32,000 nt of DNA from Nitrospirota bacterium (GTDB taxonomy: Bacteria > Nitrospirota > Thermodesulfovibrionia > Thermodesulfovibrionales > Dissulfurispiraceae): the NCBI GenBank assembly GCA_040752355.1, contig JBFMHE010000023.1, positions 1 to 32,000 on the forward strand. The letters are read 5' to 3'. Within the stretch, counting starts at the first letter, position 1. Each line of letters starts with the position of its first letter. Below are positions 8,138 through 26,458 of this stretch, in pieces. Position numbers and translations under genes: made by a program. The notes beneath the pieces were generated by a model, which saw nothing but the letters and a program-made list of their open reading frames with translations, ran no database searches and had not been told where the DNA came from.

Positions 8138-8167
8138 TTGACACCGAAAGGTAAGAACCTTTAGAAT
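8138..8167 (+). promoter_or_regulatory. Sigma70-like promoter: TTGACA, 18-nt spacer, TAGAAT
   Basis: TTGACA at 8138-8143 and TAGAAT at 8162-8167, 32 nt upstream of the cytochrome c start codon. Confidence 0.6.
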
Positions 8168-8181
8168 GAGACACAGTCTCA
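8167..8181. promoter_or_regulatory. Palindromic operator candidate TGAGACACAGTCTCA (TGAGA-N5-TCTCA), copy 1
   Basis: 15-bp inverted repeat that shares its first T with the -10 hexamer. The same TGAGA-N5-TCTCA pattern is present at 8713-8727 and 17041-17055. Confidence 0.6.
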
Positions 8182-8198
8182 AAAATAAGGAGGATTCG

Positions 8199-8657
8199 AT
8201 GAGCAAAACGTTTCTCGCCGTAATGAGCAGTCTCTTCTTCTTTTCACTGGTCTCTGCCGCATGGTCCGAAGAGGTGACCTACCGGAAACATATCAAGCCG
8301 GTCGTCGATGCCAAGTGCGCCGGCTGCCACGGCAAGGAGGCCGCTCCCGAATACTACGCCTTCAAGGAAGAGAAGGACAAGTGGCTCGCCAAGGGGCAGG
8401 GGATGCGGATGGACACCTACAGCCACCTGATTTTTTACACCGCCTGGCCCGACACCGGTGCCCTCATGCGCAGGCTTGATGACGGGAAAGGCTCCAAGGA
8501 AGGCAAGCAAGGCAACATGTACCAGTATCTCGGCGCAACCGAGGAAGAGCGGCAGCAGAACCTGAAGCTCTTCAAGGAGTGGGTCGGCAACTGGACATTG
8601 AAGCGGTGGAAGGATATCACCAAAGAGGATATGAACGGGATCAAAGTAACGTACTGA
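8199..8657 (+). CDS. Secreted monoheme c-type cytochrome (PSCyt1-like haem motif)
   Basis: Signal peptide MSKTFLAVMSSLFFFSLVSAAWS and a single CxxCH within HIKPVVDAKCAGCHG, which resembles the planctomycete cytochrome C (PSCyt1) motif. AAGGAGG lies 6 nt upstream of the ATG at 8199. The track start at 8166 lies inside the operator. Confidence 0.8.
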   Translation: MSKTFLAVMSSLFFFSLVSAAWSEEVTYRKHIKPVVDAKCAGCHGKEAAPEYYAFKEEKDKWLAKGQGMRMDTYSHLIFYTAWPDTGALMRRLDDGKGSKEGKQGNMYQYLGATEEERQQNLKLFKEWVGNWTLKRWKDITKEDMNGIKVTY

Positions 8658-8668
8658 TCTTCCGGGGA

Positions 8669-8702
8669 GAGGGGCGGGGCACTGTCTCGTCCCTCTTTTT
8701 TT
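8669..8702 (+). terminator. Rho-independent terminator after the cytochrome c gene
   Basis: GAGGGGCGGG (8669-8678) pairs with CTCGTCCCTC (8686-8695) as 10 bp including 2 G-U pairs. The loop is 7 nt, followed by seven T (8696-8702). Confidence 0.7.
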
Positions 8703-8712
8703 GGCCTACTGA

Positions 8713-8727
8713 TGAGAAGCAGTCTCA
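8713..8727. promoter_or_regulatory. Palindromic operator candidate TGAGAAGCAGTCTCA (TGAGA-N5-TCTCA), copy 2
   Basis: Lies 19 nt upstream of the first DUF2325-like gene's ATG, immediately after the terminator. No strong -35/-10 was seen here. Confidence 0.5.
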
Positions 8728-8746
8728 ATAGCAAAAGGAGGGTGGC

Positions 8747-9043
8747 ATGTGTATCGCGCTGATCGGCGGCATGGACAGGCTTGAGCGGCATTACAGAAGC
8801 GAGGCAGAGAGCTTCGGCGTAGACCTTAAAGTGTTTACCACATCCGAGAACGATATCACTGCCAAGGTCAGGCATATGGATGCATTGGTGATTTTTACCA
8901 ATAAAGTCTCACACAGGGTAAAAAGAGAGGTGATGAGTGTCGCGCGAGCAAAGAGTATCCCCGTTTTCCTGTATCACTCATGCGGGGTCTGCACCCTGCG
9001 TGACTGCCTCGCTTGTCTGAAAAATCCGAAGCAGGAGGTGTGA
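8747..9043 (+). CDS. DUF2325-like small cytoplasmic protein with a C-terminal CxxC-x4-CxxC
   Basis: MCIALIGGMDRLERHY...DALVIFTNKVSHRVKREV...IPVFLYHS matches my recollection of the DUF2325 pattern. The C-terminus reads SCGVCTLRDCLACL. An AAGGAGGG SD is present. Confidence 0.65.
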   Translation: MCIALIGGMDRLERHYRSEAESFGVDLKVFTTSENDITAKVRHMDALVIFTNKVSHRVKREVMSVARAKSIPVFLYHSCGVCTLRDCLACLKNPKQEV

Positions 9044-9045
9044 TC

Positions 9046-9327
9046 ATGTCTGCGATTGTTTTAAGCGGCGTGGAGAAGCTTGTAACCATGTCCCCGGTAC
9101 TCGAGAAGATCGGCATCAAAAACATCCATTTTTTCAACGCGCGCAATAACGATGAGCTGAGCACTCCACTCGTTGCGCTGGTCCCGTTCGTGGATGCGGT
9201 GGTGTTGGGAGAGGACGCTCATTTCTCGCCTCATATACACAGGCTTATTGATGAGGCGCTTGCACGGCATATCCCGGTCGTCGCGGAGAGTTGCATTAAT
9301 GAAATTGAATACCTTTTCAAGAATTGA
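9046..9327 (+). CDS. Divergent DUF2325-like paralogue lacking the Cys cluster
   Basis: Starts 2 nt after the previous stop, with an AGGAGGTG SD. AIVLSGVEKL...VDAVVLGEDAHFSPHIHRLIDEA...IPVVAES aligns positionally with the upstream protein. Confidence 0.5.
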   Translation: MSAIVLSGVEKLVTMSPVLEKIGIKNIHFFNARNNDELSTPLVALVPFVDAVVLGEDAHFSPHIHRLIDEALARHIPVVAESCINEIEYLFKN

Positions 9328-9403
9328 AACATGGAATGATCGTGTAGCGAGGAGGACAAGGAATTGTTTCAATTCTATTCAGATAGCAATAGGAGGAAAG
9401 GGA

Positions 9404-10177
9404 ATGCTTAAGAAGGGATTATTAATCGCTGCGCTGCTGCTCATTATGAGTAACGTCGCGACGGCTAAGGATATCTTAATTACCAATGATACAGGCACGC
9501 AAGGAAAAGGCCATCTGCTTGTTGAGGTTAACAGCGAGTTTTCTTTTGACGAGGAAAGCGCTGATGGCGTTACCACAAAAGAGTCGGGGATAGAGTTCGA
9601 GTCGATATTTTCTTATGGGCTTGCGGAGAACATAGATTTCATTGTTGCGTTGCCCTATGCCTGGAACAAGGTCAAGGAGGACGGGGTCACCATACAGAAA
9701 GAAGAGGGCATTTCCGATGTAGGGCTGGAGCTAAAGTGGAGATTTTATGAAAAAGACGGACTGAGCTTTGCCCTGAAGCCGGGTATTTCGCTCCCCACCG
9801 GTGATGATGAAAAGGGACTCGGAGCCGGAAGAGCAGCATATGGCATCTTCTTCATTACGACGAAAGAGGTCCAGCCCCTCTTATTTCATCTGAATCTTGC
9901 CTACACGAGAAACGAGAACAAGGTCGACGAGAGAAAAGATATCTGGTACGCCTCCCTTTCGGGAGAGGTGGAGCTCATTAAAAAGCTCACGTTCATCGGC
10001 AACGTGGGAGTGCAGACGAATACCGATCCCGCGTCGGGCAGTCCGCCTGCCTTCATTCTCGGCGGCTTTAACTATGAGGTCACCGATGCTTTTTCGGTTA
10101 ATGCCGGCATCAAGGGAGGCCTCACCAGGGCCGAAACCGATTACGCCGTCCTTACCGGTCTAGCGTGGCGGTTCTAA
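9404..10177 (+). CDS. Outer-membrane beta-barrel protein (transporter / MetA-pathway phenol-degradation-like family)
   Basis: Signal peptide MLKKGLLIAALLLIMSNVATA, alternating beta-strand pattern, an LPTGDDEKGLGAG motif and the terminal ...GLAWRF (C-terminal Phe typical of outer-membrane proteins). An AGGAGGAAAG SD is present. Confidence 0.75.
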   Translation: MLKKGLLIAALLLIMSNVATAKDILITNDTGTQGKGHLLVEVNSEFSFDEESADGVTTKESGIEFESIFSYGLAENIDFIVALPYAWNKVKEDGVTIQKEEGISDVGLELKWRFYEKDGLSFALKPGISLPTGDDEKGLGAGRAAYGIFFITTKEVQPLLFHLNLAYTRNENKVDERKDIWYASLSGEVELIKKLTFIGNVGVQTNTDPASGSPPAFILGGFNYEVTDAFSVNAGIKGGLTRAETDYAVLTGLAWRF

Positions 10178-10194
10178 AAAAAGGAGGAGCGGAT

Positions 10195-10476
10195 ATGATG
10201 CCTCTCGGTCTTTTGAGCGCCGGGGAGACGGCGGAGGTGGTGGAAGTGCGCGGTCAGCACCAGGCGGGCCAGTGCTGTGCTGCGGAGAGCAAGTCCGGGT
10301 CGTGCAGCCAGACCTGCAGGATAGAGGATATGGGGCTCCGTGCCGGCAAGGTCATCGAGATGCTGAGCAACGGCGGACAAGGAGCCTTGCTGGTAAAGGT
10401 CGACGAGACCCGGCTGGCCATCGGCCGCGGCATGGCGATGAAAGTAATGGTAAGAAGATTAGCGTTCAGCAGTTAG
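10195..10476 (+). CDS. feoA: FeoA-domain protein with a Cys-rich insertion
   Basis: FeoA core MPLGLLSAGETAEVVEV...IEDMGLRAGKVIEMLSNGGQGALLVKVDETRLAIGRGMAMKVMV is interrupted by GQHQAGQCCAAESKSGSCSQTC. An AAGGAGGAG SD is present. The stop codon lies inside repeat copy 2. Confidence 0.8.
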   Translation: MMPLGLLSAGETAEVVEVRGQHQAGQCCAAESKSGSCSQTCRIEDMGLRAGKVIEMLSNGGQGALLVKVDETRLAIGRGMAMKVMVRRLAFSS

Positions 10477-10545
10477 CTTTCAGCAGTCGGCAAAATCATC
10501 TTGTAAAATGGCTGCTATCCGAGAGCTGAGAGCCGATGACTGCAA
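10457..10545. repeat. Heptamer-array palindromic element, copy 2: 5x NNT[CT][AG]GC, a 19-nt spacer, then 5 inverted heptamers
   Basis: Left arm: gaTTAGC gtTCAGC agTTAGC ttTCAGC agTCGGC (10457-10491). Right arm: GCTGCta TCCGAga GCTGAga GCCGAtg ACTGCaa (10511-10545). Same family as 5295-5422, in the opposite orientation. Confidence 0.75.
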
Positions 10546-10557
10546 AGGGAGGGTATT

Positions 10558-10785
10558 ATGAATCTGGCGAAGTTGAAGCCCGGAGAGAGAGGGCGCATTA
10601 CGCATATCGGCGTCACCGGCCCGTTGAAGAGGAGGCTCATGGACATGGGCGTGCTCGTCGGCGAGGAGGTCAGGGTCGAGAAGGTCGCTCCGCTGGGAGA
10701 TCCCATCGAGGTGACTATTAAAAATTATAACCTCTCGCTCAGGAAGAAAGAGGCTGAGGGAATTGCGGTGGAGGTGGCAGGATGA
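10558..10785 (+). CDS. feoA: FeoA (canonical, 75 aa)
   Basis: LAKLKPGERGRITHIGVTGPLKRRLMDMGVLVGEEVRVEKVAPLGDPIEVTIKNYNLSLRKKEAEGIAV is a standard FeoA SH3-like sequence. Its stop overlaps the feoB start (ATGA). Confidence 0.92.
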   Translation: MNLAKLKPGERGRITHIGVTGPLKRRLMDMGVLVGEEVRVEKVAPLGDPIEVTIKNYNLSLRKKEAEGIAVEVAG

Positions 10786-13013
10786 GCACAGCCGTTCGCA
10801 GCAAGGAGACAGGGACCGGGAGCGAAAGACCGCGGCTTAAAGCTCAAAGCCAAAAGACCATTACCGTTGCGGTCGCCGGCAACCCGAACTCCGGCAAATC
10901 GACGCTCATCAATGCCATCGCCGGCACGCGGCTCCATGTGGGCAACTGGCCGGGCGTGACCGTCGAGAAGAAAGAGGCGCTGTTCGACTATGAGGGCACG
11001 AAGATCAAACTGGTCGACCTCCCCGGCACCTACAGCCTCAGCCCCTACACGCAGGAGGAGATCATCGCCCGCGATTATCTCGTGCATGAGACGCCCGATG
11101 CGATCATCAACGTGGTCGATGCGACGAACCTCGAGAGGAATCTCTACCTGACGGTCCAGCTCCTGGAGCTCGGCATTCCCGTTGTCCTCGCCCTCAATAT
11201 TTACGACGAGGCCGAGCAGAAAGGGTATACGATCGATGTGCGGGCGATGGAAGCACTGCTGGGCGTTGCCGTCATCCCCACGGTGGCGACGAAGAAGAGG
11301 GGTCTGAGCGATGTGATGAGGACCGCGATCGAGAGCGCTGAAAAGCCGCAGCAGCACCGGCCGAAGCGCCTCAACTACGGCGATGACATAGAGGCTGCGG
11401 CCAGGGGAGTGGAAGAGCAGATGAACCGCATCCATCCCGCTCTCATCGAGCGGTATCCCGCACGCTGGCTTGCGCTGAAGCTGATGGAAGGGGACAGCCA
11501 TGTTCGCAAAGAGATCAATACCGGCAGCAGCGGCTTCATCGGCGAGGCGGTGAGGCATCTCAAGGAGGCCCACGGCGATGATATCGAGTCCCTTATGGCG
11601 GACATGCGGTACGCACAGGCAGCAGGCCTGACCCGCGAGGTCATGAAGAGGCCCGACATACGGAAGATGGAGCTTACCGAGAAGATCGACAGGGTAGTCC
11701 TCAACAGGTTCCTCGGCATCCCCCTCTTCCTCGCTGCCATGTGGCTGGTATTCAAGCTTACCTTTGACGTATCGACCCCCTTCGTCGACTGGATCGACGC
11801 CATGACCGCAGGGCCGTTCAAGCGATGGGCAGAGGCGCTCCTGGGCGCATTGAACGCCCCTGCATGGACGGCATCACTGGCAACGGACGGCATTATTGCC
11901 GGAGTGGGGTTTGTCCTTGTCTTCGTGCCGGTCATCTTCGCCATGATGTTTTTCATTACGTTTCTTGAGGGCAGCGGCTACATGGCGCGGGCTGCCTTTG
12001 TCATGGACCGGGCGATGCACGCCATCGGGCTGCACGGCAAGTCGTTCATCCCGATGCTGCTCGGTTTCGGCTGCAACGTGCCTGCCATCTATGCAACGAG
12101 GACCCTCGAGAATCCGCGGGACAAGGCGCTCACCGCACTGCTCATCCCCCTCATGTCCTGCGGCGCGCGCCTTCCGGTATATGTGCTCTTTGTCGGCGTG
12201 TTCTTCTCGGCCAATGCGGGAACGGTGCTCTGGTCGCTGTACGTACTGGGCATTGTACTTGCCGTGGTTATGGGAAGTATCTTCAAAAGGACGCTCTTCA
12301 AAGGGGAGTCGCCGATGTTCATCATGGAGCTCCCGCCGTACCGTATGCCCTCCTTCAGGAGCCTCATGATCCACACCTGGGAAAAGGGAAAGCATTTTCT
12401 GATAAAGGCCGGCACGTATATCCTCGCGGTCTCGATCTTCGTATGGTTTCTCCTCAATCTGCCGTGGGGCGTGGAGCACAAGAAAGACTCCTACCTCGGC
12501 AAGGCCGGACAGGTGATCGCTCCTGCGCTGAGCCCTCTCGGGTTCGGCAATTGGGAGGCGGCGTCCTCATTGATCACCGGGATCATCGCAAAAGAGATCG
12601 TGGTCGGCACCATGGGAGAGATCTACGCTGTCACAAGTGGGGATGAAGAGAGGACGGAAATCCCTACGCTGACGGATGACCTCAAGGAGATCGGGACCTC
12701 TTTTGCGGGGGCGGTCAGGGACTCGGCGGCCAACGTGATCTCGACCTTCGGCATAGCGAGCATATCCGCGGAGGAGGATGAAGAGCAGAGGCCGCTGCGA
12801 TCGGTTGTTCAAGGCGCGTTCAGTCCGCTCTCCGCCTATGCGTTCATGACGTTTGTGCTTCTTTATATGCCCTGCGTCATTGTCGCCATAGCCATGCGGC
12901 AGGAGTTCGGCACCTGGAAGTGGTTCGGCATCGCCTTTGCGTACCAGACAGTGCTGGCGTGGGGTGCCGCGTTTGTGATCTACCAGGGCGGAAGGCTGTT
13001 GGGGCTCGAGTAA
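10782..13013 (+). CDS. feoB: Ferrous iron transporter FeoB (743 aa)
   Basis: N-terminal G-domain with GNPNSGKST, DLPGTYSL and NIYD, followed by a polytopic membrane domain with the gate-motif region. Confidence 0.95.
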   Translation: MSTAVRSKETGTGSERPRLKAQSQKTITVAVAGNPNSGKSTLINAIAGTRLHVGNWPGVTVEKKEALFDYEGTKIKLVDLPGTYSLSPYTQEEIIARDYLVHETPDAIINVVDATNLERNLYLTVQLLELGIPVVLALNIYDEAEQKGYTIDVRAMEALLGVAVIPTVATKKRGLSDVMRTAIESAEKPQQHRPKRLNYGDDIEAAARGVEEQMNRIHPALIERYPARWLALKLMEGDSHVRKEINTGSSGFIGEAVRHLKEAHGDDIESLMADMRYAQAAGLTREVMKRPDIRKMELTEKIDRVVLNRFLGIPLFLAAMWLVFKLTFDVSTPFVDWIDAMTAGPFKRWAEALLGALNAPAWTASLATDGIIAGVGFVLVFVPVIFAMMFFITFLEGSGYMARAAFVMDRAMHAIGLHGKSFIPMLLGFGCNVPAIYATRTLENPRDKALTALLIPLMSCGARLPVYVLFVGVFFSANAGTVLWSLYVLGIVLAVVMGSIFKRTLFKGESPMFIMELPPYRMPSFRSLMIHTWEKGKHFLIKAGTYILAVSIFVWFLLNLPWGVEHKKDSYLGKAGQVIAPALSPLGFGNWEAASSLITGIIAKEIVVGTMGEIYAVTSGDEERTEIPTLTDDLKEIGTSFAGAVRDSAANVISTFGIASISAEEDEEQRPLRSVVQGAFSPLSAYAFMTFVLLYMPCVIVAIAMRQEFGTWKWFGIAFAYQTVLAWGAAFVIYQGGRLLGLE

Positions 13014-13032
13014 TCAGAATGAGGAGGGCATC

Positions 13033-13197
13033 ATGAACCTTACCGATGCGGTATGGATGGCGGTGATCCTGGCAGGCGCGGTATATCTCCTCTACCGCTC
13101 GGTCTGGAAAAAGAAGGGGCACTGCCAGGGATGCGATTCAGGGATATGCAATAAGAAAAGAGGAGAGGAGCAGCCGCGCTCATCTCAGGAGCTTTAA
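13033..13197 (+). CDS. FeoB-associated Cys-rich small membrane protein (54 aa, absent from the ORF track)
   Basis: My own translation is MNLTDAVWMAVILAGAVYLLYRSVWKKKGHCQGCDSGICNKKRGEEQPRSSQEL*. It has one TM helix plus CxxCxxxxC, and a GAGGAGGG SD lies 5 nt upstream. Position and pattern fit the FeoB-associated Cys-rich family. Confidence 0.7.
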   Translation: MNLTDAVWMAVILAGAVYLLYRSVWKKKGHCQGCDSGICNKKRGEEQPRSSQEL

Positions 13198-13521
13198 CTC
13201 TCCCGTCAACTCGTCGAGGGATGCTGCTTCGGCAGGTCCGAGTCCCAAGCAGGTGATGGTTCCTGCAGGCACGACCGTCCTGCCTGCATCGGCAATCAGG
13301 GAGGCAGGGATGCCGCGCTGCCTGGCCGCCTCATCGAGGCGTTTGAGCTCTTCATCGCTCTCGGCCCTCAGGACGACCTTGGGCATCCCGCTCGCGAGCC
13401 ACGCCCGCCGGGCGTCTTCGTCTGCGCTGAGAAAAGCGGCGACAGCGGCATGAGCTGCCTGGGCCGCCAGTTTGCCCCGGGGCAGCTTGAGTGATTCGTT
13501 GACGACGATAACCTGTTTCAT
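13180..13521 (-). CDS. Peptidyl-tRNA hydrolase, PTH2 (archaeal/eukaryotic-type) family
   Basis: MKQVIVVNESLKLPRGKLAAQAAHAAVAAF...PKVVLRAESDEEL...IADAGRTVVPAGTITCLGLGP matches the PTH2 pattern. Its 3' end overlaps the convergent small ORF by 18 nt. Confidence 0.8.
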   Translation of the reverse strand: MKQVIVVNESLKLPRGKLAAQAAHAAVAAFLSADEDARRAWLASGMPKVVLRAESDEELKRLDEAARQRGIPASLIADAGRTVVPAGTITCLGLGPAEAASLDELTGELKLLR

Positions 13522-13638
13522 TGCTGCGGAATATAGCATAGCCGGGACACAAAAGCAATTTCAGGGGTCCCGCGGCCCTCGTCTTCAGCAGGGTATCGGG
13601 AGAGAGAGGAATTCACCGCGCGGCGGGCTCAGGACCGG

Positions 13639-14055
13639 TTACGCTCTCCTGATCACCATGAGCCTCATCGCCAGGGTACGGCTGATAGCCAGCCGGGCGC
13701 CATCCACCTTTACCACCAGAGCCCCTTTGCCGTCGTTGCTCAGCATCTCGACGATCGTGCCGGCACGGAGGCCCAATCCCTCCATCCTGCAGACAAGACT
13801 GTCCGGTTCCGGTGCACTGCTGCCACTCGTGCACGGCTTGAGCACTGCTCCGCCGGGCAGCTGCCGTATCTCTGCCCGCGCTCCCGGCTGTAAAAGGCCG
13901 AGGGGCATGCCTCCAGCCTGCTCTCCTGCCGGAAGGGCGCCATCGTCCCCTTTGAGGCCCGGATAGCCGACCGCGGGGTCGCCTGATCCTCTCTTTATGC
14001 CGGCATCGAGGCCGAAAGAGTCAATTATGGTGGGATTTTCTGCTGCTTTTCTCAT
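13639..14055 (-). CDS. feoA: FeoA-domain protein with a Cys-containing insertion and a possible Gly-rich N-terminal extension
   Basis: MPLGLLQPGARAEIRQL..KPCTSGSSAPEPDSLVCRMEGLGLRAGTIVEMLSNDGKGALVVKVDGARLAISRTLAMRLMV is a paralogue of the 10195-10476 product. The alternative start at 13908 has a poorly spaced SD, while the ATG at 14055 has GAGG 5 nt upstream. Confidence 0.75.
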   Translation of the reverse strand: MRKAAENPTIIDSFGLDAGIKRGSGDPAVGYPGLKGDDGALPAGEQAGGMPLGLLQPGARAEIRQLPGGAVLKPCTSGSSAPEPDSLVCRMEGLGLRAGTIVEMLSNDGKGALVVKVDGARLAISRTLAMRLMVIRRA

Positions 14056-14187
14056 TGCACCCTCTCTTCAAACGTCCGTACCGGGGGATGACCCCTCACC
14101 GATAGCGGCTGTCATGTTCAGGCAGTTTCCTTCTCGAACGATTCATGCATGCCGCGACACTGCGCGATGCGCCTGGACGAGATGATA

Positions 14188-14469
14188 CTACGCTGGAGGT
14201 GCCTTATTGTTGGAAGGGGATTTTGATACGGATAAAAAGGAAGACGTGTACGGCTGAAAGACGATGGTCCTTATTTCATGGCAGTTGAGGAGGATAGTGC
14301 TGTCCGCTGCTATGGCGCTGGCGAGGTGGGACGACACTTTGCAGAGAGGGCAATTCCTCTGAACTGTTCTGCCCTCATGGTTGTCGAAAGAGACGGCGGC
14401 AGCAGTGAGGAGCAGAAGTATCGCACAGAGGAGGGAGAGCTGTCTCGAGAACCGTTCGGGTAATAACAT
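14188..14469 (-). CDS. Small signal-anchored protein with a CPLC motif (hypothetical, vaguely DUF2946-like)
   Basis: The 93-aa ORF reads MLLPERFSRQLSLLCAILLLLTAAAVSF...NCPLCKVSSHLASAI. A consensus promoter ends 5 nt before its ATG. Confidence 0.45.
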   Translation of the reverse strand: MLLPERFSRQLSLLCAILLLLTAAAVSFDNHEGRTVQRNCPLCKVSSHLASAIAADSTILLNCHEIRTIVFQPYTSSFLSVSKSPSNNKAPPA

Positions 14470-14474
14470 ACTGT

Positions 14475-14503
14475 ATTCTAAGAGGCAGGTTGCTGTTTGT
14501 CAA
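14475..14503 (-). promoter_or_regulatory. Consensus sigma70-like promoter: TTGACA, 17-nt spacer, TAGAAT (minus strand)
   Basis: The reverse complement of 14498-14503 is TTGACA and that of 14475-14480 is TAGAAT. The ATG at 14469 follows after 5 nt, which implies a leaderless or near-leaderless transcript. Confidence 0.6.
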
Positions 14504-14540: not shown

Positions 14541-15005
14541 TTAATGCGATTTAATGTTGTGATGCGAAGCGGTCTTGCCCGTGTCGCCGCCGCAGGTGCT
14601 GCAGTACCCGAAGATTTCGAGGCTATGCCTCACCTTCTTGAACTTCTCCTTCTGGCAGAGCTCGTCCTGCAGCATCTCGAGGGTAGGGGAAAAGAACTCG
14701 ATGACCTTGCCGCACTTGATGCAGATCATATGGTCGTGATGGGCCTCCTCCGACACGCGCTCGTAGTGCGCATGCTTGTCGATCCGCTCGACCTCCTCGA
14801 TGAAGCCGCACTCGATGAGGAGGGGGATTGTCCGGTACACCGAGGCGCGGGACACCTTCGAGCCTTTCGTCTTGAGCCTGACGAAGAGCTCCTCGGGGTC
14901 GAAGTGGCCCTTGATGCTCATGATCTCGTCGATGATCTCGTCACGCCCCTTGGTGGCTTTGAGCCCCTTGGTGCAGAGGAACTCTCTGAACTTCTCCTTT
15001 GGCAT
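14541..15005 (-). CDS. fur: Fur-family transcriptional regulator
   Basis: Winged-helix segment SRASVYRTIPLLIECGFI, metal-site HHDHMICIKCGKVIEF and a second CxxC (CSTCGG). A GGGGGAGGTG SD is present, and the gene lies 17 nt downstream of feoB. Confidence 0.9.
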   Translation of the reverse strand: MPKEKFREFLCTKGLKATKGRDEIIDEIMSIKGHFDPEELFVRLKTKGSKVSRASVYRTIPLLIECGFIEEVERIDKHAHYERVSEEAHHDHMICIKCGKVIEFFSPTLEMLQDELCQKEKFKKVRHSLEIFGYCSTCGGDTGKTASHHNIKSH

Positions 15006-15022: not shown

Positions 15023-17002
15023 CTATAGTGCGACATTGAAATAACGCAGCAACCAGTTCAGTGCCCCGCCGAAGAGAAAGGCGAGGGGAAAAACGATGCC
15101 GATGACCCAGAGGGTCGTCTTCAAGCCCCGCTCTTTGATGATCATGAAGAAGCTGGCGAGGCAGGGAATGAACAGCGTTATGGTGACGAGACTCACCAGC
15201 GCCTGTATCGGCGTGAGCAGACCGTCCTCGAAGAGCTTGAAGAGTCCTGCCGCACCGTAATCCCTCCGCAGGAAGCCGAGGATGAAGGACTCCGTCGTCT
15301 TCTCGGGAAGGCCGAGGAGCGTAACGACGACGGGCGAGGCGATCTCCTGGAGCATCGCGATGAGATTCAGCTTATGGAGCAGGAAGAGGATGAGGGTGCC
15401 GAGGATGAAGAGCGGCACCGCCTCTTTCAGATACCACTCGATCCTGCCGAGGGTCTTTACGAGGATGTTGCCGATATTGGGCATACGGATCGGCGGTATC
15501 TCGAGGAAGAACTCGGTCCTCTCCCCGGGAACGAGCTTCGAGGCGAGGAAGCCCGAGATGAAGAGGATGACGATGATGCTGCTCATCCAGATGACGGCCG
15601 CTTTGAGCGAGAGCGCCCCCAATATGCCGAGGATGACTCCCAGCTGCGCCGAGCAGGGGATCGCGAGCGCGAGGAGAAAGGTCGTGATGATCCGGTCCCT
15701 CCTGGTCTCGAGGATACGCGAGGTCATGACCGCCATGGTGCCGCAGCCGAGGCCCAGGATCATCGGCAGCACCGCCTTGCCGTTGAGCCCCATGACATTG
15801 AAGACCCGGTTGCTCATGATGGCGAGCCGCGGGAGATAGCCGCTGTCCTCGAGGAGAGAGAAGGCGATGAAGAAGGTCGCAGTAATGGGCAGGATAATCG
15901 CGATCGCATAGGTGAGGGCGACCGTAATCAGCCCGTACTCTCCGACGAGCAGCTCCTGAACAATACCGATGGGAATCAGAAGCTGCACCACCTTGGTCGC
16001 CATCGGATTGATGTAGCCGTTGAAGAGCGTCTCCTCGAAGAAATCGACGAGCGTGCCGGCCCCGAAGACGCCGACGAACTGGTAGATGCCGTAGAGCACG
16101 CCGAGCAGGAGCGGAATGCCGTAGAGCGGATGCATGCTGATCCTGCCGATGAGGGCGAGGAGCTTGCCTCCCTCCGGCCCCGCTTTTCTGACGACGCTCC
16201 CGACGATCGCTTCCGCTGCCTCGATGCGGGCCTTGTTTATCACGTAGCCTGCCGGCTCTTTCATCGCGAGCTTGCATTCGTCGCGGAGCGCTTCTATTTC
16301 GAGGAGGGCGGCCTCTTTGAGATTGCTTTTCAGCCAGTCCCGCAGGCTCTCGTCTTCGGAAAGGACCATCACCGCAAGGGACCGCTGCGAGACGGCAGCG
16401 GAGGGGAGCAGCCGCCCGATCTTTTCGATATAGTCCTCGATGACCGGGTGATAGGTGATCCGGACCGTCGGCCTCCCGGGCGAGAGCATGGATTCCCGCA
16501 GCTCCTTGATCCCTTTACGCTGCGGGGCGATGGTGCTCACCACATTGATGCCGAGCATCTGCTTAAGCCGCTCGGTATCGATGGTAATGCCCTTGTCCAT
16601 CGCCTCATCGACCATGTTCAGGTCGAGGACGATCGGAATGCCCATCTCGGCGAGCTGGAGGGTTATCATGAGGGTCCTCTTGAGATTTTTTGCGTCCCCT
16701 ACCTGCACCACGGCCGAGGGGGCCTCGGTCAGGAGGATATCCCGCGTCACCTTCTCGTCCTCGCTCATGGGGATGAGGCTGTTGACGCCGGGGGTATCGA
16801 CGAGGACGAGACGTTTACCGTCGAGGGCGATATTGCCCTGGGTGATCTCGACGGTCGTCCCCGGGTAATTGGACACGGTCACGTACTTGCCGGTGAGGAG
16901 GCCGAAAATAACGCTCTTGCCCACGTTGGGATTGCCGATGAGCGCAATTTTCTCGAGCTCGCCGTGCTGCTTCTTCGCCTTTACCGCTGCTGCCTCTGCT
17001 TT
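15023..17002 (-). CDS. feoB: Ferrous iron transporter FeoB, second copy (~660 aa)
   Basis: G-domain with GNPNVGKSV, DTPGVNSL and NMVD, plus a polytopic membrane domain. I prefer the TTG at 17002, which has AGGAGG 4 nt upstream. The maximal ORF reaches 17056, but that TTG would sit at or upstream of the predicted transcription start. Confidence 0.9.
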   Translation of the reverse strand, partial: KAEAAAVKAKKQHGELEKIALIGNPNVGKSVIFGLLTGKYVTVSNYPGTTVEITQGNIALDGKRLVLVDTPGVNSLIPMSEDEKVTRDILLTEAPSAVVQVGDAKNLKRTLMITLQLAEMGIPIVLDLNMVDEAMDKGITIDTERLKQMLGINVVSTIAPQRKGIKELRESMLSPGRPTVRITYHPVIEDYIEKIGRLLPSAAVSQRSLAVMVLSEDESLRDWLKSNLKEAALLEIEALRDECKLAMKEPAGYVINKARIEAAEAIVGSVVRKAGPEGGKLLALIGRISMHPLYGIPLLLGVLYGIYQFVGVFGAGTLVDFFEETLFNGYINPMATKVVQLLIPIGIVQELLVGEYGLITVALTYAIAIILPITATFFIAFSLLEDSGYLPRLAIMSNRVFNVMGLNGKAVLPMILGLGCGTMAVMTSRILETRRDRIITTFLLALAIPCSAQLGVILGILGALSLKAAVIWMSSIIVILFISGFLASKLVPGERTEFFLEIPPIRMPNIGNILVKTLGRIEWYLKEAVPLFILGTLILFLLHKLNLIAMLQEIASPVVVTLLGLPEKTTESFILGFLRRDYGAAGLFKLFEDGLLTPIQALVSLVTITLFIPCLASFFMIIKERGLKTTLWVIGIVFPLAFLFGGALNWLLRYFNVAL

Positions 17003-17040
17003 CAAAACGCCTCCTGCAGGAATCCGGGAACGCAATCCAG

Positions 17041-17091
17041 TGAGAATAAATCTCAATTACAATTGTAGAAAAGGTACGATGATTTAATCAA
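17041..17091 (-). promoter_or_regulatory. Promoter (TTGATT, 18-nt spacer, TACAAT) plus operator candidate TGAGAATAAATCTCA (copy 3) upstream of feoB-fur
   Basis: On the minus strand, -35 is at 17086-17091 and -10 at 17062-17067. The palindrome at 17041-17055 starts 6 nt downstream of the -10. It has the 7-1-7 layout of Fur-family boxes. Confidence 0.6.
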
Positions 17092-23776: not shown

Positions 23777-26458
23777 ATGACCGAACGGGATTTCAAGTAC
23801 CGGCGCGAGGACTTCGGCCCGCTTCCGGTGACGCTGCACCATCTGACGATCTCCCTGAGCTTCTTCAGCGATTCCGTCGAGGCGACCAACTGTCTCGAGA
23901 TGAGCGCGCGGCAGGAGCTCAGCGAGCTCCCTCTCGACGCCAACAGCCTCGAGATCCTCTCTGTCGAACAGGTCACAGGCCCCGAAGACCGGCAGGGGAC
24001 CCCCCTGCGCTACGACTACCAGAGGGAGAGGAACAAACTGGTCGTGCTCCTGCCGCAGAGGGTTGCGCCCGGGGAGAGATTCTTCGTGAGGACGAAGACC
24101 CGCTGCTTTCCCTCCGATCACCTCCTGGAGGGGATATACAGGGATGCGACACCTCCCGGCAAGCCGCAGCAGTATATGTCACAGTGCCAGCAGTGGGGAT
24201 TCCAGCGCATCATGCCGATCTTCGACGACTGCCGTGCGAAGTGCACCATGACGACGACCCTCGAAGCGGACAGCGCCTATACCCATCTCATCAGCAACGG
24301 CAACATCAGCCGCCGCACGAATCCCGGGGGAAGGCCGGCGCCCAAGCCGGGCGACCCGAAACGGCAGGTCATTACCTATGAGAATCCGCTCCCGATGGCG
24401 CCCTATCTCTTCATCGCCTGCGCCGGGACCTGGGACACCCTCGTCGACAGCGTCACCTATCCGTCGGGGAGGACGGTGCGCCTCGAGTACCTCGTGCCCC
24501 CCGGCGCGGTCGACGAGGTGCGCGTACCCATGGAGATACTGAAGGCGTCGGTGCTCTGGGTCGGCAGGACCCAGGATTACGAATACACCGGCGATACCTA
24601 TCGCACCATCTGCATGAACAAATCGAATTTCGGGGGTATGGAGAACGTCGGCAACACCACGATCGTCACCGACGCCGCGCTCATCAACGAGCATACCCTC
24701 GACACGGCGCTGCTCTACGCCCATGCGGTGATCGTGCACGAATTCGAGCACAACCAGTGCGGCAGCGAGACGACCATGGATACGCCGTTCGATGTCTGGC
24801 TCAACGAAGCCTATACCGTGGATGTGGAGCGCCAGTTCATGGCCGATGTCTTCACTCCCTCCTTCGTGCGCCTGCAGCAGGTGGACAGCATCCGCAATCC
24901 TCTCCTCGGCCCCCTGGCGATCGAGGACGCAGGGCATGCCGGGAGGATCGTCCGGGAGGGATTCAACGACCCCGATGAGCTCATCGACAGCGTCACGTAT
25001 GTGAAGGCCGCCGAGGTGATCAGGATGCTCCGCCTCGTCATCGGCGCCGAAGACTTCATCAAGGGCAAGACGCTCTACTTCACGCGGTATCATAACGGCA
25101 ACGCCACGACGGACCAGTTCTTCGCCTGCTTCGAGGAGGCCTCGGGTATCTCCCTCGAACAATTCAAACGGCAGTGGCTCTATATCATCGGCTATCCGAA
25201 GGTGAGCGCCACGACCCATTACGATCCGTCGTCGAAGAGCTGCCGCATCCGCTTCCGGCAGGCGGTGAAACAGGACCAGCAGTCCTTTCATCTCCCCCTC
25301 GAGCTCGCACTCGTAGACCGGCAGGGGCGCGATATGCCGGGAACGCATCAGGTCTTCCAGCTGAAAGAGAGCGAAGCGGAGCTGCTGATCGAGCGGGTCG
25401 ACGAGGCGCCTGCATTCGCCTCGATGAACCGGGGCTACTCCTTCTACGGCACCTTTCAGCACGAGAACGCGTCGCCCGAGGCGAGGATAGCCCAGGCGCG
25501 GCTCGACCCCGATGTCTACAACCGGATCGATGCGATGCGGCAGCTGACTGACCAGGAGCGCATCGCCCTCCTCGAGAGCCTGGATAAGGGGACTATCGGC
25601 GACGTGAGCGCGGCGTGGCTCGATCTTTACGGCGAATTCCTCGCCGATCCGGCTCTGCCTGCATCGCTCAAGGCGTACTTTCTCCGCATCGACGAGCAGC
25701 CGGTAAACCGCGCCTACAGCACCTGGTACCAGGAGCTCGTCGCCGCACGGGAAGCACTCATGAAGGCGGTGAACCGCCGTTATCGCGACCGGCTCGTCAG
25801 GGAGTTCCGGCGCATCGATACCTATTCGGCTGCGCCTGCCGCCTCACCGGGCAGCGGCATCGAAGAGCGCATGCTCAAGAACGTGCTGCTCGATCTGATC
25901 GTTATCGACGACTCTCCTGAGAGCCATCGCCTTATCCATGAGCATTTCGCTGCGGCGACTGCGGCCACTGATCGTGTTGCAGCGCTCCTCGCCCTCAACC
26001 GGAGCTCGGCCCCCCGGCGGAGGGAAGCGCTCGAAGAAGTGTACGAGAAGTGGCGTCACCATCTGAGCGGCTACGCCAATTACCTTCGCATCGTGTCGAG
26101 CGGGACCCGTGAGGATGTCTTCGACATGATCGAGGCCGAAAAGCGGCGTCCAGGGTTCGACATTACCCAGCCCACATGGAGCAGGGCGCTGTTCCTCCCC
26201 ATGGCGGCAAACAACAAGATGGTCTGGACAGACCGGGGCATCGCGTGGGTTGCGGCAACGGTGGTAGAGCTGGCCCCCATCAATGCAACGACGACGGGGC
26301 GGCTGCTCACCACCTTTCAGCACGTCCGGTCATTGAAGCCCGCGCTCCGGGGGAAGGCAGCGGACGCCCTGGAGCGTATCGTCGGGAACGTTTCGCCCGA
26401 GAAGAGCCCGGCTGTTTACGGCCAGGCGAGGACGTATCTGGCGAGTGTTGCCCCGTAA
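23777..26458 (+). CDS. pepN: M1-family aminopeptidase (aminopeptidase N-like, 893 aa)
   Basis: GGMEN exopeptidase motif and HEFEHNQCG...WLNEAYT (HExxH plus a distal Glu). An AAAGGAG SD is present. Confidence 0.88.
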   Translation: MTERDFKYRREDFGPLPVTLHHLTISLSFFSDSVEATNCLEMSARQELSELPLDANSLEILSVEQVTGPEDRQGTPLRYDYQRERNKLVVLLPQRVAPGERFFVRTKTRCFPSDHLLEGIYRDATPPGKPQQYMSQCQQWGFQRIMPIFDDCRAKCTMTTTLEADSAYTHLISNGNISRRTNPGGRPAPKPGDPKRQVITYENPLPMAPYLFIACAGTWDTLVDSVTYPSGRTVRLEYLVPPGAVDEVRVPMEILKASVLWVGRTQDYEYTGDTYRTICMNKSNFGGMENVGNTTIVTDAALINEHTLDTALLYAHAVIVHEFEHNQCGSETTMDTPFDVWLNEAYTVDVERQFMADVFTPSFVRLQQVDSIRNPLLGPLAIEDAGHAGRIVREGFNDPDELIDSVTYVKAAEVIRMLRLVIGAEDFIKGKTLYFTRYHNGNATTDQFFACFEEASGISLEQFKRQWLYIIGYPKVSATTHYDPSSKSCRIRFRQAVKQDQQSFHLPLELALVDRQGRDMPGTHQVFQLKESEAELLIERVDEAPAFASMNRGYSFYGTFQHENASPEARIAQARLDPDVYNRIDAMRQLTDQERIALLESLDKGTIGDVSAAWLDLYGEFLADPALPASLKAYFLRIDEQPVNRAYSTWYQELVAAREALMKAVNRRYRDRLVREFRRIDTYSAAPAASPGSGIEERMLKNVLLDLIVIDDSPESHRLIHEHFAAATAATDRVAALLALNRSSAPRRREALEEVYEKWRHHLSGYANYLRIVSSGTREDVFDMIEAEKRRPGFDITQPTWSRALFLPMAANNKMVWTDRGIAWVAATVVELAPINATTTGRLLTTFQHVRSLKPALRGKAADALERIVGNVSPEKSPAVYGQARTYLASVAP

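What the first reader, a model, noticed from the sequence alone, without database searches (positions are those of the whole stretch)
8199..10177. Low-GC module (secreted monoheme cytochrome c, two DUF2325-like proteins, OM beta-barrel) grafted in front of feoAAB
Seen: my spot counts of 60-nt lines give about 35% G+C (9361-9420) and 47% (9481-9540) here, against about 63% at 24001-24060. The module is therefore compositionally distinct from the flanking genes.

It encodes:
- a periplasmic one-haem cytochrome with a PSCyt1-like IKPVVDAKCAGCHG motif
- two small cytoplasmic DUF2325-like proteins
- a PF13557-like barrel ending in ...AWRF

The barrel stop is only 17 nt from the feoA start, implying co-transcription.

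Inference: the barrel could be the missing OM entry route for Fe(II). The cytochrome could keep iron reduced or sense periplasmic redox state. No such role is established for any of these families.
Basis: partly seen in the sequence, partly recalled or inferred. Interest (0 to 1): 0.7.

Follow-up and report, generated by a model that had tools for sequence, protein, structure and literature searches.

The report
Iron-regulated extended ferrous-iron uptake locus
This is a conserved, iron-repressed gene cluster that adds a periplasmic cytochrome (PccH), small cysteine-rich cytoplasmic proteins and an outer-membrane barrel to the FeoAB ferrous-iron importer; the layout was already seen in Geobacter, but the barrel family also sits beside nickel and cobalt importers, which suggests it is an unrecognised outer-membrane metal gate.

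Summary
The genes are real and mostly as described. The cytochrome is a true PccH orthologue, 77% identical to G. sulfurreducens PccH (PDB 4RLR), not PSCyt1. The first small protein is DUF2325. The second is only a distant, rare relative. The barrel is a PF13557/COG4313 12-stranded barrel.

The low G+C is real, but only for DUF2325, the second small gene and the barrel (8747-10177, GC3 0.60-0.64 against 0.81). PccH has host-like GC3 (0.78).

A palindrome, TGAGA-N5-TCTCA, follows the -10 of the pccH promoter, precedes DUF2325 after a terminator hairpin, and follows the -10 of the neighbouring feoB/fur promoter. Equivalent Fur-like boxes and the terminator-plus-box layout recur in relatives from several phyla.

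G. sulfurreducens has the same order with an unrelated OprB porin in the barrel slot. Rodionov 2004 and Embree 2014 already linked it to Fur.

New here: close barrel homologues lie next to FeoAB or next to NikR/CbiX-CbiMNQO nickel/cobalt importers. PccH and DUF2325 accompany only the iron version.

Best reading: a Fur-controlled, envelope-spanning Fe(II) acquisition system. The barrel is the outer-membrane metal channel. PccH is probably a periplasmic iron reductant. No function has been tested.

The parts
8138..8167 (+). Sigma-70-type promoter P1 of pccH (TTGACA-18-TAGAAT)
   Evidence: 11 of 12 consensus matches. The Fur-like box starts at the last base of the -10 hexamer.
8167..8181 (+). Fur-box candidate 1, TGAGACACAGTCTCA
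   Evidence: Exact match to TGAGA-N5-TCTCA. There are three exact sites in 32 kb, all at feo-related promoters. Allowing one mismatch the window has 5 matches, and 0 of 100 shuffles reach 5. Fur-like boxes lie upstream of pccH in 42-49% of relatives against 3-5% of controls.
8199..8657 (+). pccH: secreted monohaem c-type cytochrome (152 aa; signal peptide; CAGCH at residues 40-44; invariant Met107)
   Evidence: PF22297, 197 bits. E 4e-70 and about 77% identity to G. sulfurreducens PccH, PDB 4RLR. 1386 homologues at 67-81% identity among the top 120. GC3 0.78.
8662..8704 (+). Intrinsic-terminator-like hairpin plus U-run after pccH
   Evidence: -25.5 kcal/mol, z = -2.25. Flagged. A hairpin plus T-run at the same place in at least 12 relatives.
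8713..8727 (+). Fur-box candidate 2, TGAGAAGCAGTCTCA, 20 nt upstream of the DUF2325 start
   Evidence: A box at the equivalent position (about 45-57 nt into the intergenic region, just before the ribosome-binding site) in most relatives.
8747..9043 (+). DUF2325 protein (98 aa), cytoplasmic, with invariant HSCGxCTLRDCxxC cysteine cluster
   Evidence: PF10087, E 1e-25. Invariant C79, C82, C87, C90 and near-invariant C2. AF2 model pLDDT 87, a minimal Rossmann-like (beta-alpha)4 fold with no specific PDB relative. GC3 0.64.
9046..9327 (+). Second small cytoplasmic protein (93 aa), a distant DUF2325-like paralogue lacking the Cys cluster
   Evidence: No Pfam or NCBIfam hit. hhalign against the DUF2325 family: probability 77%, E 2e-5. 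Only 18 clusters in 1.84 billion representatives. Found between DUF2325 and the barrel in L003, L036, L095-097 and L123. A 2-nt gap to the upstream gene. GC3 0.61.
9404..10177 (+). Outer-membrane 12-stranded barrel (257 aa; signal peptide ...VATA|KD; conserved N-terminal segment ILITNDTGTQGKG; C-terminal AWRF)
   Evidence: PF13557, 72.7 bits. AF2 pLDDT 75.5, pTM 0.72. Foldseek: FapF TM 0.72-0.77, COG4313 Pput2725 (4RL8) TM 0.72. Conserved predicted lumen residues: 17 acidic against 6 basic. Homologues sit next to FeoAB or CbiM/NikR/CbiX. GC3 0.60.
10195..10476 (+). feoA-1 (93 aa, with a Cys-rich insertion)
   Evidence: PF04023, E 4e-14. Starts 17 nt after the barrel stop.
10558..10785 (+). feoA-2 (75 aa)
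   Evidence: PF04023, E 1e-23. Overlaps the feoB start by 4 nt.
10782..13013 (+). feoB (743 aa), the Geobacter 'FeoB-2' type
   Evidence: FeoB_N, FeoB_Cyto, Gate x2 and FeoB_C. 69-79% identical to the feoB next to pccH/barrel in relatives.
13033..13197 (+). FeoB-associated Cys-rich membrane protein (54 aa)
   Evidence: PF12669, 27.6 bits. Same position in relatives and in the G. sulfurreducens-type locus.
14541..15005 (-). fur (154 aa), the likely regulator of the locus
   Evidence: PF01475, E 3e-32. Downstream of the second feoB on the same strand, as in Geobacter feoB-1/fur (PMC2700814).
17041..17055 (-). Fur-box candidate 3, TGAGAATAAATCTCA, just downstream of the -10 of the feoB-1/fur promoter (17091-17062, minus strand)

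Best explanation
The region 8138-13197 is a Fur-repressed ferrous-iron acquisition system that spans the cell envelope. It is built from two adjacent transcription units.

Unit 1 is pccH alone: a promoter, an operator overlapping the end of the -10, the gene, then a terminator.

Unit 2 is DUF2325, a DUF2325-like gene, the barrel, feoA, feoA, feoB and the feoB-associated gene. It has its own operator about 20 nt before the first ribosome-binding site.

Proposed sequence under iron starvation:
1. Both units are derepressed.
2. The 12-stranded PF13557 barrel lets iron across the outer membrane. Its lumen is predicted to be acidic and it has a highly conserved N-terminal plug segment.
3. Periplasmic PccH keeps that iron, or converts it to, Fe(II). 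The Geobacter orthologue has a midpoint near -35 mV, which is unusually low for a monohaem cytochrome.
4. FeoB with two FeoA proteins imports Fe(II).
5. The cysteine-cluster DUF2325 protein and its Cys-less paralogue act on the cytoplasmic side, as a metal or Fe-S acceptor or as a sensor for Feo. This would be analogous in role to FeoC.

Shown: gene identities, operon layout, operator candidates and their conservation, synteny statistics, and the fold of the barrel.

Inferred: Fur binding, metal permeation through the barrel, iron reduction by PccH, and the DUF2325 role.

My step-wise confidences are: locus-level function 0.8, barrel as metal channel 0.6, PccH as iron reductant 0.4, DUF2325 role 0.3.
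For: Identities.

Regulation:
- Three exact TGAGA-N5-TCTCA sites sit only at the pccH, DUF2325 and feoB-1/fur control regions.
- Fur-like boxes lie upstream of pccH in 39/79 genomes, against 3.4% of random windows and 5% of other genes' upstream regions.
- The terminator-plus-box architecture between pccH and DUF2325 is conserved.
- In G. sulfurreducens, Fur boxes were predicted upstream of the cytochrome (genX, now PccH) and upstream of porin-feoA-feoA-feoB2 (PMC545781). gsu3274 is cited as a direct Fur target.

Synteny:
- Of 80 pccH loci from GTDB species genomes, 23 have feoB, 22 DUF2325, 18 the barrel and 14 fur within 5 kb. 39 have at least one of these.
- The G. sulfurreducens-type locus reads PccH-DUF3793-DUF2325-OprB-FeoA-FeoA-FeoB-FeoB_assoc.

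Barrel:
- Of 80 barrel-anchored metagenome loci, about 24 are in a Feo context, about 33 are directly next to CbiM (often with NikR or CbiX upstream and CbiQ/O downstream), and 3-6 are in a CbiK/FecCD B12 context.
- Other close homologues lie by Fe(III) ABC or RND metal-efflux genes.
- The fold matches 12-stranded plugged barrels. The predicted lumen is acidic.

Iron specificity of the accessories: PccH 7/20 and DUF2325 10/20 in Feo contexts, against 0/32 in CbiM contexts.

Precedent for periplasmic Fe(III) reduction feeding FeoAB: B. japonicum FsrB (PMC10760861 abstract).

PccH potential of -24 to -35 mV: PMC4717640 and PMC13591261.
Against: - No experiment links PccH, DUF2325 or any PF13557 barrel to iron uptake.
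- The published PccH phenotype is loss of electron uptake from a cathode (Strycharz 2011, as cited), and in vitro it accepts electrons from GSU2515. Both fit a role as a general electron carrier.
- About half of pccH loci have no feo, fur, DUF2325 or barrel gene within 5 kb.
- The characterised COG4313 members are implicated in uptake of hydrophobic molecules, not ions (PMC4493636).
- The N-terminal plug segment is modelled with low confidence (pLDDT < 50 for residues 13-32). Lumen orientation was inferred from residue parity, not from coordinates.
- No convincing -35/-10 pair was found for unit 2.
- The low GC3 of the three middle genes is unexplained by this model.
Confidence: 0.55

Rival explanations
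1. PccH is a general periplasmic electron carrier. It would be either part of an inward electron-uptake chain, as the Geobacter literature holds, or an iron-sparing monohaem substitute for multihaem carriers. On this view it belongs to the Fur regulon and merely lies near feo. The barrel is an ordinary small porin with no dedicated role in metal uptake.
For: - The cathode phenotype, and electron transfer from GSU2515 to PccH.
- Fur regulons elsewhere include iron-sparing carriers such as flavodoxin (PMC545781).
- Half of pccH loci lack feo neighbours.
- pccH is its own transcription unit.
Against: - pccH lies within 5 kb of feoB in 23/80 species, about 36% where both flanks are present. My rough estimate for a random gene is about 1%, taking 1-3 feoB copies per 3-4 Mb genome.
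- It never accompanies the same barrel next to Ni/Co importers.
- PccH deletion did not affect AHQDS oxidation, so it is not generally required for inward electron flow.
- The barrel's adjacency to three different metal importers is not expected of a generic porin.
Confidence: 0.25
2. The barrel imports a hydrophobic or chelated ligand rather than free divalent cations, in line with its COG4313 relatives. Candidates are a metallophore, a corrinoid or haem-like compound, or a metal complex.
For: - Family precedent: Pput2725 binds detergent; TcpY and SphA have hydrophobic substrates.
- Some homologues sit in CbiK/FecCD/periplasmic-binding-protein B12-type clusters.
- One is preceded by an Fe(III) ABC transporter.
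Against: - The most frequent neighbours are CbiM(NQO) and FeoAB. From established knowledge of those families, both take free cations.
- NikR, a Ni2+ sensor, lies upstream in about 10 loci.
- Conserved predicted lumen residues are mostly acidic or polar.
Confidence: 0.15
3. The low-GC block is a recent horizontally acquired island. It landed by chance in front of feoAAB and has no functional connection to it.
For: - GC3 of 0.60-0.64 against 0.81 for host genes.
- Most relatives carrying the cassette have low-GC genomes, 33-46%.
- Loci with pccH directly followed by feoAAB exist (L048, L052, L066). An insertion between them is therefore conceivable.
Against: - The same order recurs in many genomes and phyla.
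- The block carries a Fur-like operator of the host's own TGAGA-N5-TCTCA type.
- There are no tRNA genes and no flanking direct repeats.
- Barrel GC3 is also somewhat below feoB GC3 in most relatives.
- Acquisition by transfer would in any case not argue against function.
Confidence: 0.05

Closest known systems
G. sulfurreducens GSU3274-GSU3268 locus (pccH/'genX', 'genY', porin, feoA, feoA, feoB-2)
   Same: - Same gene order on one strand: PccH, small cytoplasmic proteins including DUF2325, an outer-membrane barrel, feoA, feoA, feoB, the FeoB-associated peptide.
- Two Fur boxes.
- PccH is about 77% identical.
- A second feoB next to fur elsewhere. In this window it is only 2 kb away.
   Different: - The barrel is PF13557 (257 aa) here and OprB/PF04966 (469 aa) in Geobacter.
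- Geobacter has DUF3793 where this locus has a Cys-less DUF2325-like paralogue.
- The second Fur box lies before DUF2325 here and before the porin in Geobacter.
- The host here is a Nitrospirota MAG.
COG4313 / PF13557 outer-membrane channels (Pput2725, TcpY, SphA) and FapF
   Same: Pfam membership. [quoted passage not shown]
   Different: - Known members are linked to hydrophobic substrates or amyloid export.
- This subfamily has a near-invariant (A-H-P)-L-I-T-D-D-T-G-T-Q-G-K-G N-terminus and many conserved acidic residues.
- It is encoded next to metal-cation importers.
- The window protein carries the minority K-D-I-L-I-T-N-D variant.
Dedicated or preferred outer-membrane Fe(II) routes: Francisella FupA with FeoB; E. 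coli OmpC with Feo
   Same: The concept of an outer-membrane protein working upstream of FeoB for ferrous iron.
   Different: These are unrelated protein families. FupA and OmpC are not encoded in the feo operon. Their roles have experimental support; the role proposed here has none.
B. japonicum FsrB plus FeoAB (periplasmic ferric reduction feeding Feo)
   Same: The logic that iron reaching the periplasm is reduced there and then imported by FeoAB (PMC10760861 abstract).
   Different: As I recall, FsrB is a membrane ferric reductase rather than a soluble c-type cytochrome. PccH has not been tested for Fe(III) reduction.
FeoC of gamma-proteobacteria
   Same: A small cytoplasmic, cysteine-bearing protein encoded in a feo operon. 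This is a functional analogy proposed for DUF2325.
   Different: From established knowledge, FeoC is a winged-helix protein. DUF2325 is predicted to be a Rossmann-like (beta-alpha)4 domain. No homology and no data link them.

Membership tests
PccH cytochrome c (PF22297) | Profile HMM match above the curated cut-off over the full domain | tested here: met
   196.7 bits against a cut-off of 24.4. Residues 27-152 match profile positions 1-133 of 133.
PccH cytochrome c (PF22297) | Close sequence relationship to the solved G. sulfurreducens PccH (4RLR), with a single CXXCH and a conserved axial Met | tested here: met
   E 4e-70 over residues 25-152. C40, C43, H44 and M107 are invariant in 26 homologues. 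Assigning H44 and M107 as His21/Met84 of the mature protein rests on my recollection of Dantas 2015.
PccH cytochrome c (PF22297) | Low midpoint potential (about -24 to -35 mV) and periplasmic location | not testable with these tools
   A Sec-type signal peptide is visible (MSKTFLAVMSSLFFFSLVSAAWS). The potential is known only for the Geobacter protein.
   No PF07635 hit at E <= 0.01. Only PF22297 is reported.
DUF2325 (PF10087) | Profile HMM match (ORF 8747-9043) | tested here: met
   90.2 bits against a cut-off of 33.6.
DUF2325 (PF10087) | Profile HMM match (ORF 9046-9327) | tested here: inconclusive
   No Pfam hit at E <= 0.01. hhalign of its small family against the DUF2325 family gives probability 77%, E 2e-5, over 65 columns. 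It lacks the Cys cluster.
COG4313 / PF13557 outer-membrane channel | Profile HMM match above the cut-off | tested here: met
   72.7 bits against a cut-off of 22.
COG4313 / PF13557 outer-membrane channel | [quoted passage not shown] | tested here: inconclusive
   The model (pLDDT 75.5) superposes on 4RL8 (TMq 0.72) and FapF (0.72-0.77). DSSP splits the sheet into 13 elements. The N-terminal segment has pLDDT < 50, so its position is not resolved.
COG4313 / PF13557 outer-membrane channel | Uptake of hydrophobic substrates | not testable with these tools
   Gene context points to metal cations instead.
Feo ferrous-iron transporter | FeoA plus FeoB with G-domain, helical domain, two Gate motifs and FeoB_C | tested here: met
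   All domains are above their cut-offs.
Fur regulon | Palindromic operator overlapping the promoter, shared with fur/feo genes of the same genome and conserved in relatives | tested here: met
   Three exact TGAGA-N5-TCTCA sites at the pccH, DUF2325 and feoB-1/fur control regions. Enrichment and positional conservation in relatives.
Fur regulon | Fur binding and iron-dependent repression | not testable with these tools
   Reported for G. sulfurreducens gsu3274, only as cited.
Horizontally acquired genomic island | Deviant composition | tested here: met
   GC3 of 0.60-0.64 against 0.81 +/- 0.055, for 8747-10177 only.
Horizontally acquired genomic island | tRNA target or flanking direct repeats | tested here: not met
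   No tRNA in the window. No direct repeats bracket the block.
Horizontally acquired genomic island | Mobility genes (integrase, transposase) in or next to the block | not tested
   The Pfam hits I obtained between 4.5 and 17 kb include none. I did not annotate the rest of the window.

The most novel reading that the evidence does not exclude
A subfamily of COG4313/PF13557 barrels, marked by the near-invariant N-terminal AHPLITDDTGTQGKG segment, is a dedicated outer-membrane gate for divalent transition metals. FeoAB (Fe2+) and NikR- or CbiX-linked CbiMNQO (Ni2+/Co2+) recruit it as a module. The PccH cytochrome family is the periplasmic reductant of the iron branch. If so, the cathode phenotype that gave PccH its name would be a secondary consequence of iron acquisition or homeostasis.
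Probability: 0.3. Interest if true: 0.8.

Novelty: new variant of a known kind. Interest (0 to 1): 0.6.

Why it matters
How Fe(II), and Ni(II)/Co(II), cross the outer membrane is usually put down to unspecified porins. Feo reviews treat the system as FeoA/B/C only. This locus and its relatives offer concrete, testable candidates for three missing parts:
- an outer-membrane channel family shared between iron and nickel/cobalt importers;
- a periplasmic redox partner specific to iron;
- a cysteine-cluster cytoplasmic partner.

It would also reframe PccH. It is studied as a key cytochrome for electron uptake in electrosynthesis, but here it appears as a widespread member of the iron-starvation response, found in at least 287 species genomes across Nitrospirota, Thermodesulfobacteriota, Planctomycetota and other phyla.

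G. sulfurreducens already has the genetics for decisive tests.

Tried and rejected
1. I tested whether the barrel's mature N-terminus separates Ni/Co-linked from Fe-linked barrels (A-H-P against K-D). It does not. AHP is near-universal in all contexts: CbiM 32/34, Feo 36/43, B12 6/6. The window simply carries a minority KD variant.

2. Exact look-up of the closest barrel homologue, P0002, found no contig on record.

3. Embree 2014 and Dantas 2015 could not be read. Their content is cited second-hand or from memory and marked as such.

4. Sequence search of the barrel against PDB chains found nothing. Only the fold search related it to 4RL8 and FapF.

5. NCBIfam gave no informative names for any of the accessory proteins.

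6. Foldseek of the DUF2325 model gave only generic Rossmann-like or PTS-IIB-like matches.

7. An inverted-repeat scan with default extension missed the short operators. They were found by pattern search instead.

8. Literature searches for PF13557, COG4313 or 'MetA-pathway' together with Fe/Co/Ni uptake returned nothing relevant. This is absence in the searchable corpus, not proof of novelty.

9. No clear -35/-10 pair was found for the second unit.


Full report
**What is there**

The + strand between 8.1 and 13.2 kb carries eight co-oriented genes, each with a good ribosome-binding site.

| Gene | Coordinates | Evidence |
|---|---|---|
| Secreted monohaem cytochrome | 8199-8657 | PF22297 |
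| DUF2325 protein | 8747-9043 | PF10087 |
| 93-aa ORF | 9046-9327 | no Pfam hit |
| PF13557 barrel | 9404-10177 | PF13557 |
| feoA | 10195-10476 | PF04023 |
| feoA | 10558-10785 | PF04023 |
| feoB | 10782-13013 | FeoB domains |
| FeoB-associated Cys-rich peptide | 13033-13197 | PF12669 |

On the opposite strand, 2 kb further on, lie a FeoA-like gene, fur (14541-15005) and a second feoB (15023-about 17005). The closest database entries name a Nitrospirota MAG with a 63-kb contig.

**Checking the observation**

The 17-nt barrel-feoA spacer, the haem motif and the AWRF terminus are also correct.

The compositional claim needs narrowing.
- Third-position G+C is 0.64, 0.61 and 0.60 for DUF2325, the 93-aa ORF and the barrel.
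- Thirteen reference genes give 0.81 +/- 0.055.
- The cytochrome has 0.78, like feoA/feoB.
- The deviant block is therefore 8747-10177. It is the lowest-GC 1.4 kb of the window.

Relatives carrying this cassette are mostly low-GC genomes, and barrel GC3 is mildly below feoB GC3 in many of them. No tRNA or flanking repeats mark an island. Horizontal origin of the three middle genes is plausible but unproven. Loci with pccH directly followed by feoAAB exist, so an insertion between them is conceivable.

**Identities**

- **Cytochrome.** It is not PSCyt1-like at family level. It is a PccH orthologue: 197 bits to PF22297, and E 4e-70 with about 77% identity to PDB 4RLR. The family is strikingly conserved, at 67-81% identity among the top 120 of 1386 hits.
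- **DUF2325 protein.** It has an invariant HSCGxCTLRDCxxC cluster. The confident model (pLDDT 87) is a minimal Rossmann-like fold with no informative structural relative.
- **The 93-aa ORF.** It belongs to a tiny family of 18 clusters among 1.84 billion representatives. It is only weakly DUF2325-like and lacks the cysteines.
- **Barrel.** The model (pLDDT 75.5) matches the 12-stranded, plugged barrels FapF and COG4313 Pput2725. Its subfamily has a near-invariant N-terminal segment and many conserved acidic residues on the predicted lumen face.

**Regulation**

A strong sigma-70-type promoter at 8138-8167 is followed immediately by the perfect palindrome TGAGACACAGTCTCA.

The motif TGAGA-N5-TCTCA has three exact copies in the window.
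- The first follows the pccH promoter.
- The second (8713-8727) lies 20 nt before DUF2325. It comes just after a -25.5 kcal/mol hairpin with a U-run that ends the pccH unit.
- The third (17041-17055) lies just after the -10 of the feoB-1/fur promoter.

The motif resembles the delta-proteobacterial Fur box TGAAAATnATTTTCA of Rodionov et al..

Across 79 pccH loci from other species, a Fur-like 15-mer (at least 10 of 12 positions) lies within 200 nt upstream in 49%. The figure is 3.4% for random windows and 5% upstream of other genes.

The 'terminator, then box, then ribosome-binding site' layout of the pccH-DUF2325 spacer is conserved in at least 12 relatives. So there are two Fur-type units: pccH alone, and DUF2325 through feoB.

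**Conservation of the neighbourhood**

*Anchored on PccH.* 287 species genomes matched and 80 loci were fetched. Within 5 kb:

| Neighbour | Loci of 80 |
|---|---|
| feoB | 23 |
| DUF2325 | 22 |
| barrel | 18 |
| fur | 14 |
| at least one of these | 39 |

Other recurring neighbours are DUF3793, DtxR-FeoA regulators, other barrels (Porin_4-like, OMP_b-brl-like), TerC, P-type ATPases and RND efflux systems. All of these are metal-homeostasis genes.

The G. sulfurreducens-type locus reads PccH-DUF3793-DUF2325-OprB-FeoA-FeoA-FeoB-FeoB_assoc. That is the same plan with an unrelated barrel in the same slot.

*Anchored on the barrel.* 80 metagenome loci at 49-61% identity were fetched.
- About 24 are Feo contexts.
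- About 33 are immediately next to CbiM. NikR (10 loci) or CbiX (8 loci) often lies upstream and CbiQ/O downstream.
- 3-6 sit in CbiK/FecCD B12-type clusters.

Many database entries even fuse a PDGLE/CbiN-like domain to the barrel.

PccH and DUF2325 occur only in the Feo contexts: 7/20 and 10/20, against 0/32 (p = 6e-4 and 1e-5).

**Interpretation**

The barrel is shared by importers of Fe2+, Ni2+ and Co2+. This is the strongest available argument that it is the outer-membrane passage for divalent transition metals.

The cytochrome accompanies only the metal that has environmental redox chemistry. The midpoint of the Geobacter orthologue, about -35 mV, is low enough to reduce chelated Fe(III). 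That thermodynamic reasoning is my inference. Together these observations favour a role in keeping periplasmic iron ferrous for FeoB. B. japonicum offers a precedent: FsrB reduces periplasmic ferric iron for FeoAB.

DUF2325, with its Cys cluster, is likely a cytoplasmic metal or Fe-S partner of Feo. This is the weakest step.

**What is already known**

- Rodionov et al. (2004) described this cytochrome (genX), a two-domain genY, a Fur box, and a porin-feoA-feoA-feoB2 operon with a second Fur box in G. sulfurreducens. They speculated that the porins carry ferrous iron.
- Embree et al. (2014) are cited as showing direct Fur control of gsu3274.
- PccH was later characterised as the cytochrome needed for electron uptake from cathodes. 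It is not needed for AHQDS oxidation.
- Outer-membrane Fe(II) routes are known in Francisella (FupA) and E. coli (OmpC).
- I found no paper linking PF13557/COG4313 barrels to metal uptake.

**Verdict**

This is a real, conserved, iron-regulated extension of the Feo system. It is a new variant of a locus already noticed in Geobacter, in a different phylum and with a different barrel family.

Three of its claims need correction: the 'graft', the family assignment of the cytochrome, and the statement that nothing is known about these families.

The most valuable lead is the link between this barrel subfamily and FeoAB, NikMNQO and CbiMNQO. The iron-specific association of PccH is a second lead. 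Both are directly testable.

Noticed in passing
window 15023-17091 (minus strand): A second feoB sits with fur immediately downstream, behind a promoter (17091-17062) and a Fur-like box (17041-17055). The mechanical ORF start at 17056 overlaps the operator. A TTG near 17005, preceded by CAGGAGG, is a more likely start.
   Followed up: partly
window 13639-14503 (minus strand): A strong sigma-70-type promoter (14503-14475, 11 of 12 consensus matches) precedes a 93-aa ORF (14188-14469). The ORF has a hydrophobic N-terminus and a CPLC motif and no Pfam hit. It is followed by a 138-aa FeoA-domain protein with a 50-residue N-terminal extension. No Fur-like box was seen at this promoter.
   Followed up: partly
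window 10195-10476: The first FeoA (93 aa) carries a Cys-rich insertion (QCCAAESKSGSCSQTC) that the canonical 75-aa second FeoA lacks. Homologues in relatives also have Cys in this loop (for example L011). It may be a metal-sensing element.
   Followed up: no
window 10459-10486: A tandem 14-nt duplication (TTAGCGTTCAGCAG / TTAGCTTTCAGCAG) spans the stop codon of the first feoA.
   Followed up: no
L084 3156-4229 and proteins P0062, P0063, P0095: In many metagenomes the barrel ORF is fused in frame to an N-terminal PDGLE/CbiN-like two-helix domain next to CbiM. An intact internal signal peptide is retained before AHPLITDD. This is either a real inner-to-outer-membrane fusion or two products from one ORF.
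   Followed up: partly
Alignment A2 and loci L082-L164: The barrel subfamily's predicted mature N-terminus is almost invariably A-H-P-L-I-T-D-D-T-G-T-Q-G-K-G. An N-terminal X-His recalls the Met1-His2 metal site of NikM/CbiM. I recall that resemblance from memory and did not test it. The window protein, L011, L110, L085 and L107 have K-D-(I/M)-L-I-T-N-D instead.
   Followed up: partly
L167 307-8271: In a Nitrospira MAG the unit DUF2325-barrel-feoA-feoA-feoB is preceded on the same strand by an FbpABC-type Fe(III) ABC transporter. The same genome carries fur-pccH-DUF2325 on another contig (L008).
   Followed up: no
L096, L097 (tandem) and L053 (8648-9070 and 17024-17446): Some genomes carry two pccH copies, either in tandem or 8 kb apart.
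   Followed up: no
Protein P0210: A 215-aa database entry joins PccH to the C-terminal two-thirds of DUF2325. A periplasmic-cytoplasmic fusion is topologically odd, so it is probably a deletion or an assembly artefact.
   Followed up: no
window 13180-13197: The FeoB-associated peptide gene overlaps the 3' end of a convergent PTH2-family peptidyl-tRNA hydrolase gene (13180-13539, minus strand) by 18 nt.
   Followed up: no
L025, L031, L032: In some Syntrophaceae/Syntrophorhabdus-like MAGs pccH sits among conserved genes that, from sequence inspection only, look like a sulfur-carrier/threonine-synthase-like cluster (clusters c11, c26-c28, c43-45). No feo genes lie nearby.
   Followed up: no
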